Shown piece after piece: positions 24,820 to 26,741 of a stretch of DNA of 64,000 nt. Positions within the stretch are counted from its first letter, which is position 1. Every line of letters starts with the position of its first letter. Origin of the DNA: the human T2T-CHM13v2.0 reference genome, Homo sapiens. The notes beneath the pieces were generated by a model, which was not told the DNA's origin, searched no databases, and saw only the letters and a list, made by a program, of their open reading frames with translations. The translations under genes were made by a program, and so were the position numbers. Location of the stretch: assembly GCF_009914755.1 (NCBI RefSeq), contig NC_060938.1, one strand, 5' to 3'.

Positions 24820-25268
24820 TGCAGCATTCAAGTGATTGTTCCAGGAACAGAGTGGGTCTTTTTGAATGGCCCGACTCAGAACGCAAGAGAGGTACGATGC
24901 CATCAGATCTGCACCTTGGTCCTTCAGTCTGAGATTTCTGACTTCTATATTTCTCCTCCTCTTCCAGACCCTGAGAAACAGCAATTTCCATTCCTCAGAT
25001 GACTCCATGTCAGTAATGGTGCTTTAATTGGCATCAGACAGCAGCTGTATTGAAGTCTCTCCTCTGGAGAAGCTATTGAGATCTTGCTTCTCCAAGGTCG
25101 GGCTGTGAACTTAAAAGTTTGCACAGAGACACTGAGTTTGGGAAATCTCAGTGCTCAACAGAATCCACTGACTCTAGGTAAAACAGGGCATGTCAGGAAG
25201 TGAGTGCAGTCTTCCCATAACCTCAGAGTAGCAGAAGGAGAAGGTGGGACTCTGAAAGCTGGAGCCAC
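24820..25268 (-). pseudogene. Heavily decayed RNase A-family pseudogene (RNase 6/7/2/3-like), copy 1
   Basis: cttcacag|GAAAC GTG GCT CCA GCT; Leu run; TTT ACC TAG AGT CAG TGG (FT*SQW); GAG CAC; TGG AGA AGC AAG..CTC AAT AGC TTC; AAT ACA GCT GCT GTC TGA; CCA AGG TGC AGA; CAA AAA GAC CCA...CAC TTG AAT, all in RNase order. Confidence 0.75.
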
Positions 25269-26741
25269 GTTTCCTGTGAAGAAAGATGGAGTGGACCTTC
25301 CTTGCTTCAGGTACCAGATCACAGGTCTCTTCTCAGTCGGGGATGCCTCATCTCTAAAACCACAGGATAGAGGGATCAGTCCCCACCTGCCCCCACACCC
25401 TCTCCACCTTGTGACTTCATCCTCTCTCGTCATTCATTCCTTCGTTCATTCATTCATCCAGCAGTCATCTACTGAGCAGATACCTTGCTCCAGGCACAGT
25501 TTGAGGGAGTGATGATGCAACACAAACCAAGACAGGTCCCTGCTCTTTTGAGGCCACATTATACAAGGATAAAAATAAACATACAAAATTGTTCTAAGCA
25601 TACAAAATTTTGCTAAGTGTCAGGAGGAAAAATACACAGCATAGTACACAGAAAATTACACAGAGCAGCACAATATAGAGGTTCTGTATGTGCCACAAAA
25701 GTGACAGGGCAGAGTGTCACCAGGAAAGACTTATCTCAGAGAATGAAATCTGAACAGGAGGAAAAGCAGCCAGTCATGCAGACACCAGATGGAGAATCAT
25801 CCCAGCAAAGAGAAAGAGAGTTCAAAAGTCCTGACAAATACCAAGGCTGTAAGAAGACTTTTCGTTCTGTGTTTACGATAAGTTGATTAAAACATCTGAA
25901 GGAGAATGACTACCATTATTCGCATCTTTGTATGTATTTATTCCTTAATGTAATAAAACATTTTCAGTTTTAAAAAATGGTCCTGAATGGATAGAGGTTT
26001 GGCGTGTTAGAAGCACAAAAGTTGTTTGGTCAGGACAAGATCATCATAGCCATGAGTGTTAATGATAGGAGTTAATGAGGTTCAGACCCTTCATGCCTGT
26101 GAAGATGGAAGAATAAAGTAAGTTCCTCATGGGGCACAAATCGAGCATGTTACATGCAAGAATAACATTGCCTAAAGATCTGTCCAGCTGCTGTGCAAAA
26201 CACAACTATTTGGGAGACAAGAGTGGAAGCAAGGCCCCAATGAAGGACCACAAGTTGAGGGAGAGGGAAACAAGAGTCTTCCAATCTCAGTGAATCTCAC
26301 CATCATCCTCTCATGCTGCAGCCCCATGCTATTCCCCTCCCTGTTGCCATGGCCTCTCTCCAGCCCCTCCATGCCTTCCACATCATCTTCCTGCCATCCC
26401 CATGCTGATGACTGGGCTGAGGTCAGAGGCAGCTCCCCTCTCCCAGGACGTGAGACGATTCAAACAAGACCAAGGAGGATTCTGTGCTTGACCATCAGGA
26501 AACCCTGGCTGGACTCACTGCCCCTTCTGCAGTAGACATCCAAGATTTTCTGATTGCCCTGGACCCAAGGCCAGCACCACAGAGACTACCATTAGAGAAG
26601 TTAAGTGGTCACATCCGCATGTTCCAAAGACGTGATCCTTGGAGTCCACTTCTTTTCCTTGAACCTCCCATGTCTGATTTTATAAAATTCTCTTAATATC
26701 AAATCTTCAGGAAGTCTTGCAGGAGTAAATGCCGTTAATTG

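What the first reader, a model, noticed from the sequence alone, without database searches (positions are those of the whole stretch)
24820..25275. Hidden fossil RNase gene lying tail-to-tail with RNASE3
Seen on the minus strand, in correct order and with roughly RNase spacing: polypyrimidine cttcacag|GAAAC, GTG-A-P-A (cf. MAPA of RNase 7/8/13), an LLLLL leader, FT*SQW (cf. FTWAQW), E-H (cf. QH, His12), TQC, WRSK/LNSF (cf. RCKDLNTF of RNase 7), NTAAV* (cf. NVAAVC of RNase 6), NC, PRCR, and QKDP...HLN (cf. QKSDP...HLD). Multiple stops and frameshifts hide it from the ORF track. Inference: an ancient member of the RNase 2/3/6/7/8 clade that died before the ECP/EDN duplication and travels with each unit.
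Basis: partly seen in the sequence, partly recalled or inferred. Interest (0 to 1): 0.7.

Follow-up and report, generated by a model that had tools for sequence, protein, structure and literature searches.

The report
Ancient dead RNase gene beside RNASE3
About 1 kb behind the human eosinophil gene RNASE3, on the opposite strand, lies the unannotated and heavily broken remnant of a related ribonuclease gene, which likely died long before RNASE3 and RNASE2 split and now likely does nothing, so it matters mainly as a record of this gene family's history.

Summary
The feature is real but of modest interest. Window 25,297-25,162 (-) matches a DNA profile of human RNASE2/3/6/7/8 at 32 bits (E 3e-10); the best of 31 control sequences scored 7.9 bits. 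Anchored tests extend homology to about 25,034. The last third (NC, PRCR, QKDP, HLN) is plausibly spaced but not above chance. A promoter/exon-1 remnant lies at 26,575-26,403 (-), so this was a duplicated gene, not a retrocopy. A second copy, 91% identical, lies behind RNASE2CP and shares the lesions of the supported part. The RNASE2 unit lacks it through a likely 10.4-kb deletion, so it sits in 2 of 3 units. It belongs to the RNase 2/3/6/7/8 group, most likely nearest RNase 2/3, but trees do not settle this. No intact orthologue stood out among 357 RNase proteins. It is absent from the RefSeq table and from the 20-mammal catalogue (PMC3845642). Verdict: an uncatalogued, ancient, unprocessed pseudogene of a known family. 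Four copies of a second uncatalogued RNase fossil were also found nearby.

The parts
25274..25298 (-). polypyrimidine tract and AG splice acceptor of the fossil coding exon
   Evidence: first 30 nt upstream of the start score 17-18 bits vs RNASE2/3, 13 vs RNASE6, 11-12 vs RNase14psA, 4-6 vs RNASE7/8
25034..25273 (-). fossil RNase coding exon, statistically supported part: short 5' UTR, dead start (GTG), signal-peptide remnant, FT*SQW, first catalytic His site, CKxxNTF-like remnant, stop after NTAAV; several frameshifts
   Evidence: nhmmer 32.2 bits for 25,297-25,162; anchored extension; motif positions
24805..25033 (-). putative C-terminal third of the fossil (NC, PRCR, QKDP, HLN or PVH); spacing plausible, homology not shown
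   Evidence: (not above chance)
26403..26575 (-). remnant of proximal promoter and non-coding exon 1, RNASE2/3-like
   Evidence: 11.5 bits, E 6.6e-4, best of 200 shuffles 2.3 bits; single-gene scores RNASE3 10.1, RNASE2CP 9.7, RNASE2 6.9, RNASE6 -1.4 bits
26262..26606 (.). 345-bp tract with no mismatch between the two copies, covering the promoter remnant; likely gene conversion
   Evidence: mismatch list; flanks about 9% divergent
53338..53835 (-). second copy of the fossil behind RNASE2CP (supported part 53,835-53,565)
   Evidence: 30.9 bits; 416 of 455 aligned bases identical to copy A
54940..55112 (-). promoter/exon-1 remnant of the second copy
   Evidence: 11.5 bits
24502..34915 (.). segment holding the fossil whose equivalent is missing from the RNASE2 unit (about 10.4 kb)
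   Evidence: self-alignment of the cluster and junction sequences
23107..23589 (+). RNASE3 coding sequence (context; converges on the fossil)
   Evidence: annotation

Best explanation
This is a broken, two-copy remnant of a secreted RNase A-family gene of the RNase 2/3/6/7/8 group, which likely arose by an ancient inverted gene duplication near the RNase 2/3 lineage, likely decayed without selection for a very long time, and likely has no function today. Shown: homology of the acceptor, leader and N-terminal half; a matching promoter/exon-1 remnant 1.1 kb upstream on the same strand; no RNase reading frame; two copies that share their lesions; absence from the RNASE2 unit. Inferred: (1) origin by DNA duplication with inversion, because promoter, exon 1 and acceptor are kept in order; (2) great age, because it is 62-69% identical to all five human paralogues and fits the mixed profile better than any single lineage; (3) death before the catarrhine duplications; (4) passive copying with the RNASE3/RNASE2CP block; (5) loss from the RNASE2 unit by one deletion.
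For: 32.2 and 30.9 bits vs best control 7.9. Mixed profiles beat single lineages: 2/3 alone 14-15 bits, 6/7/8 alone 7-10, 2/3/6 29, all five 31-32. Back-translated profile end scores: RNase 2/3 13-14 bits, 7/8 9-10, 6 8-9, 1/4/5 negative. 24 of the top 30 of 357 single proteins are RNase 2/3-type, by source name or my reading of unnamed ones. Promoter remnant matches RNASE2/3, not RNASE6. Sister to RNASE2/3 at 91/91 and in 4 of 6 other alignments. Coding span is no more conserved between copies (91.4%) than the upstream 1 kb (92.7%); downstream 87.8%.
Against: Lineage is unresolved: AU tests reject none of 4 alternative placements (p 0.065-0.19), 2 of 6 alignments place it elsewhere and support in the other 4 is 50-87, and the full-length tree leaves it in a polytomy. 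RNase 2/3 was heavily sampled. The acceptor/GAAAC junction is shared with RNase14psA, so it is a weak lineage marker. Intron homology beyond 30 nt is not detectable (76-165 of 200 shuffles reach the RNASE2/3 scores). The C-terminal third is not above chance. Lack of function is inferred, not tested; no expression data were available.
Confidence: 0.8

Rival explanations
1. Only the 5' half is RNase-derived: a truncated duplicate, with unrelated DNA after about 25,034.
For: Anchored score peaks near 24,970 and then drifts down; the tail after VC or NC is not above chance; no 3' UTR homology.
Against: The NC-to-PRCR cysteine spacing is 70 nt against 69 in RNASE6/7/8; the RNase 7/8 profile gives 4-9 of 100 shuffles for the tail; total length fits a full RNase exon.
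Confidence: 0.3
2. It is a separate ancient lineage, or closer to RNase 6 or 7/8, rather than an RNase 2/3 offshoot.
For: Equal 62-69% identity to RNASE2, 3, 6, 7 and 8; DLN and MAPA-like motifs resemble 7/8; two marsupial RNase 7/8-like proteins rank 3rd and 11th of 357; alternatives not rejected.
Against: Promoter remnant, single-gene DNA hits (RNASE2 and RNASE3 hit at E about 1e-4 to 7e-4; RNASE6, 7, 8 give no hit at E 1) and profile scores favour 2/3.
Confidence: 0.35
3. The coding part is dead but the promoter remnant has been kept as a regulatory element for the neighbouring eosinophil RNase genes.
For: The two copies have no mismatch over 345 bp that cover the promoter remnant, against about 9% divergence around it.
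Against: The low-divergence zone (34 mismatches in 1,230 bp) extends over an interspersed repeat at about 26,740-27,000, which fits gene conversion. RefSeq lists no functional element there. RNASE2 has lost the segment.
Confidence: 0.07
4. Chance resemblance from a pyrimidine-rich, Leu-codon-like stretch.
For: Pfam and tblastn do not detect it; protein-level frameshift scores are marginal at stricter penalties (6 of 100 shuffles).
Against: 32 bits vs best control 7.9; independent promoter hit on the same strand and in the right order.
Confidence: 0.02

Closest known systems
Human RNASE2 (EDN), RNASE3 (ECP) and RNASE2CP; RNase 2/3 lineage
   Same: Promoter/exon-1 sequence, acceptor plus GAAAC junction, Leu-rich leader, FTxxQW; same duplicated block
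   Different: Opposite strand; only 62-67% identical in the best block; no reading frame; far older than RNASE2CP (87% identical to RNASE3)
RNASE6, RNASE7, RNASE8
   Same: 62-69% identity in the 5' block; DLN-type signature remnant, AAV-C motif, similar C-terminal cysteine spacing
   Different: No single-gene DNA hit at E 1; promoter remnant does not match RNASE6; no robust intron match to RNASE7/8
Human RNase14psA, RNase14psB, RNase15ps (PMC3845642)
   Same: Minus-strand pseudogenes of ancient RNase lineages in the same cluster; shared acceptor junction
   Different: They lie at other places (window 5,844-6,307; chr14:15,132,417; chr14:15,186,342), group with RNase 1/4/5, and have an intact cow member; none was found for this fossil

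Membership tests
RNase A superfamily (by descent) | Significant sequence homology to family members | tested here: met
   32.2 bits, E 3.3e-10; controls at most 7.9 bits
RNase A superfamily (by descent) | Non-coding exon 1 plus a single coding exon starting just after the acceptor (structure as annotated for RNASE3) | tested here: met
   Promoter/exon-1 remnant 26,575-26,403 and acceptor 25,275; splice donor not recognisable
RNase A superfamily (by descent) | Pfam RnaseA (PF00074) match in translation | tested here: not met
   0 families in 3 frames; no match among 22 in the genome scan; expected with frameshifts every 30-80 nt
Canonical active RNase A enzyme | Uninterrupted ORF with signal peptide | tested here: not met
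   GTG at the start site, stops at 25,176 and 25,036, frame changes
Canonical active RNase A enzyme | CKxxNTF signature (PMC3845642) | tested here: not met
   Only a degraded DLNSF remnant at 25,083-25,069
Canonical active RNase A enzyme | His-Lys-His catalytic triad | tested here: inconclusive
   First His codon present at 25,153-25,151 but out of frame; Lys site ambiguous; two candidate last His sites in the unsupported tail
RNase 2/3 lineage | Supported clade with RNASE2/3 | tested here: inconclusive
   91/91, 4 of 6 alignments, alternatives not rejected
RNase14/RNase15 pseudogenes | Being one of the 4 catalogued human pseudogenes | tested here: not met
   All 4 map elsewhere
Unprocessed pseudogene | No protein product or selective constraint | tested here: inconclusive
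   No ORF and no excess conservation between copies; expression and cross-species constraint not testable here

The most novel reading that the evidence does not exclude
The fossil is the human trace of an additional ancient mammalian RNase lineage, beyond the 13 recognised, that may still be intact in some unsampled mammal; together with the second fossil type it shows that RNASE2/3 are the survivors of an older array of at least three alternating RNase genes.
Probability: 0.2. Interest if true: 0.5.

Novelty: new member of a known kind. Interest (0 to 1): 0.27.

Why it matters
It adds two uncatalogued pseudogene copies (six with the second fossil type) to a cluster listed with 13 genes and 4 pseudogenes in humans (PMC3845642). 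It gives markers for ordering the RNASE3/RNASE2CP/RNASE2 duplications, including a likely 10.4-kb deletion in the RNASE2 unit and a likely recent conversion tract. It fits the known birth-and-death model of this family and suggests no new mechanism. It would matter more if an intact orthologue exists in another mammal.

Tried and rejected
tblastn with RNASE3 gave only E 3.1; Pfam gave nothing. BLOSUM frameshift alignment was marginal: 0 of 100 shuffles at penalty 8, 6 of 100 at penalty 12 for copy A; 2 and 5 of 100 for copy B. No intact orthologue: no outlier among 268 proteins or 357 proteins; these came from truncated lists (120 of 328, 120 of 159, 150 of 278 hits), and one search kept only proteins of 100-260 aa. 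An RNASE8 intron hit at 26,199-26,014 (4.8 bits) fell to -2.5 bits with a longer query and was absent with the 7/8 profile; rejected. Intron and 3' UTR homology were not detected. Identity with RNase14/15ps or LOC100130571 rejected. Retrocopy origin rejected because acceptor and promoter remnant are present. Repeat origin rejected because only 2 full copies were found. The region between RNASE1 and the window start was not scanned at DNA level, so more diverged copies there are not excluded.

Full report
OBSERVATION. The element ends about 1 kb from the RNASE3 3' end, so the tail-to-tail geometry is right. Protein tools miss it: tblastn with RNASE3 gives E 3.1, Pfam gives 0 families in 3 frames, and none of the 22 genome-wide PF00074 matches lies here. 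DNA profiles find it. A profile of human RNASE2/3/6/7/8 hits 25,297-25,162 at 32.2 bits (E 3.3e-10) and 53,835-53,689 at 30.9 bits. The best of 30 block-shuffled windows and the reversed cluster was 7.9 bits.

EXTENT. The part 3' of QW is not significant on its own: 119 of 300 and 184 of 300 shuffles reach the score. I built lineage profiles from mammalian proteins, back-translated them and scored them anchored at the start site. With the two non-anthropoid RNase 2/3 profiles, shuffling everything after QW reached the real score in 0 of 100 (copy A, both profiles) and 2 and 0 of 100 (copy B); random genomic tails did so in 1-2 of 100. After NSF the counts were 6 and 9 (A), 0 and 1 (B). After VC they were 17 and 13 (A), 8 and 11 (B). 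After NC they were 44 and 43 (A), 17 and 9 (B). The RNase 7/8 profile gave 4-9 of 100 for the last two cuts. Homology is thus supported to about 25,034, and the last third is plausible but unproven. The two copies are not independent tests.

GENE STRUCTURE. A profile of the upstream regions of RNASE2, 3, 2CP and 6 hits 26,575-26,403 (-) and 55,112-54,940 (-) at 11.5 bits, E 6.6e-4, covering proximal promoter and exon 1; the best of 200 shuffles was 2.3 bits. Single-gene scores were RNASE3 10.1 (0 of 200 shuffles), RNASE2CP 9.7 (0), RNASE2 6.9 (1), RNASE6 -1.4 (19). The 1.1-kb interval down to the acceptor holds multi-copy pieces near 25,430-25,530 and 25,840-25,970; the first looks like an L2 3' end (name recalled, not from a call). 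Intron homology itself is not detectable. Promoter, exon 1 and acceptor in order on one strand point to a DNA-level duplicate.

COPIES AND TIMING. The fossil lies in a block duplicated between the RNASE3 and RNASE2CP units (23,839-29,788 vs 52,363-58,271, 89.9%). A genome search finds 2 full copies among 4 matches, the other two being 40-70 bp repeat pieces. The copies are 91.4% identical over the coding span, 92.7% upstream and 87.8% downstream. They share the GTG start site, both stops and the frame changes of the supported part. The three units are about 89% identical to each other near the genes, and PMC3845642 places the RNase2/3 duplication in the catarrhine ancestor, so death came earlier (inference). 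The RNASE2 unit follows the other units to the equivalent of 24,501 and resumes at about 34,916. Deletion is the likelier reading: the RNASE2 unit is 93.9% identical to the RNASE2CP unit just past the junction, and an older paralogous unit keeps a match to 34,038-34,263 inside the missing segment. So 'travels with each unit' holds for 2 of 3.

LINEAGE. In the best block the fossil is 62-69% identical to each of RNASE2, 3, 6, 7 and 8, like RNASE2 to RNASE6 (67%). Mixed profiles score far better than single lineages, which fits an old branch near the root of the group. The lean is to RNase 2/3: single-gene hits only with RNASE2 and RNASE3 among 13 genes, highest profile scores, 24 of the top 30 of 357 proteins (with RNase 2/3 heavily sampled), and the promoter match. 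Trees are not decisive: 91/91 for sisterhood with RNASE2/3, no alternative rejected (AU p 0.065-0.19); 4 of 6 other alignments agree weakly and 2 do not; the full-length tree is unresolved. No protein stood out as an intact orthologue.

MECHANISM. Most likely (0.8): an ancient inverted duplication of a secreted RNase gene, loss of function, long neutral decay, passive copying with the RNASE3/RNASE2CP block, and deletion from the RNASE2 unit. It encodes no RNase; the longest ATG ORFs nearby are 111 and 92 aa in A and 92 and 76 aa in B, and none follows the RNase frame. It lies inside an intron of the predicted lncRNA LOC100507513 on the same strand (hub annotation). One oddity: the copies have no mismatch over 26,262-26,606, covering the promoter remnant. 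Gene conversion is likelier than selection, because the low-divergence zone runs into an interspersed repeat.

LITERATURE. PMC3845642: I saw passages, sections 9 and 11 and term searches of its sequence supplement. It lists 4 human pseudogenes, found with an E-value cut-off of 1e-10. All 4 map elsewhere, judged by comparing displayed snippets with loci. Of 7 fossil motifs searched, 6 gave no hit and 1 hit a guinea pig RNase1; 2 motifs of the second fossil type gave no hit. Line breaks in the PDF can hide a motif, and its coordinate tables (Table S2) could not be read. PMC4425883: one passage only, naming RNASE2 and RNASE3 among genes hit by non-allelic recombination. Seven searches showed no title or abstract describing this element; those papers were seen as listings only. 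GENCODE, Ensembl and subscription papers could not be checked, so 'uncatalogued' is limited to these sources.

VERDICT. Real, ancient, unprocessed RNase A-family pseudogene in two copies; a new member of a known kind. Interest 0.27.

Noticed in passing
window 19,942-19,810 (-) and 41,713-41,576 (-); also chr14:15,150,009-15,149,877 and about 15,176,900-15,176,800 (-): A second, unannotated RNase fossil type about 3.2 kb upstream of RNASE3 and RNASE2 and about 9 kb upstream of RNASE2CP, plus an older diverged copy. It scores higher against the RNase 2/3 profile than the finding (18-22 vs 6.6 bits). This one is present in all three units. It carries a short insert resembling MADE1 (name recalled).
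   Followed up: partly
window 5,844-6,307 (-): RNase14psA of PMC3845642 overlaps an exon of the predicted lncRNA LOC100507513 and has no row in the RefSeq table; its paralogue RNase14psB lies near the lncRNA's 5' end, just outside the window.
   Followed up: partly
window 19,491-22,753 vs chr14 about 15,176,400-15,184,400: An older duplicated unit (63-75% identity) keeps the second fossil type and an RNASE2/3-like promoter remnant (44 bits) but lacks the RNase gene itself.
   Followed up: partly
window 26,262-26,606 vs about 54,800-55,145: 345 bp identical between the two duplicated units, inside a 1.2-kb zone of about 3% divergence; likely recent gene conversion.
   Followed up: partly
window 42,346-48,136: A 5.8-kb masked repeat separates the second fossil type from RNASE2CP; a piece at 47,775-48,109 matches 29,790-30,124 inverted at 90%.
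   Followed up: no
window about 25,840-25,970: Short piece 81% identical to a site on contig C12, starting with a T run; it may be a retrocopied 3' end.
   Followed up: no
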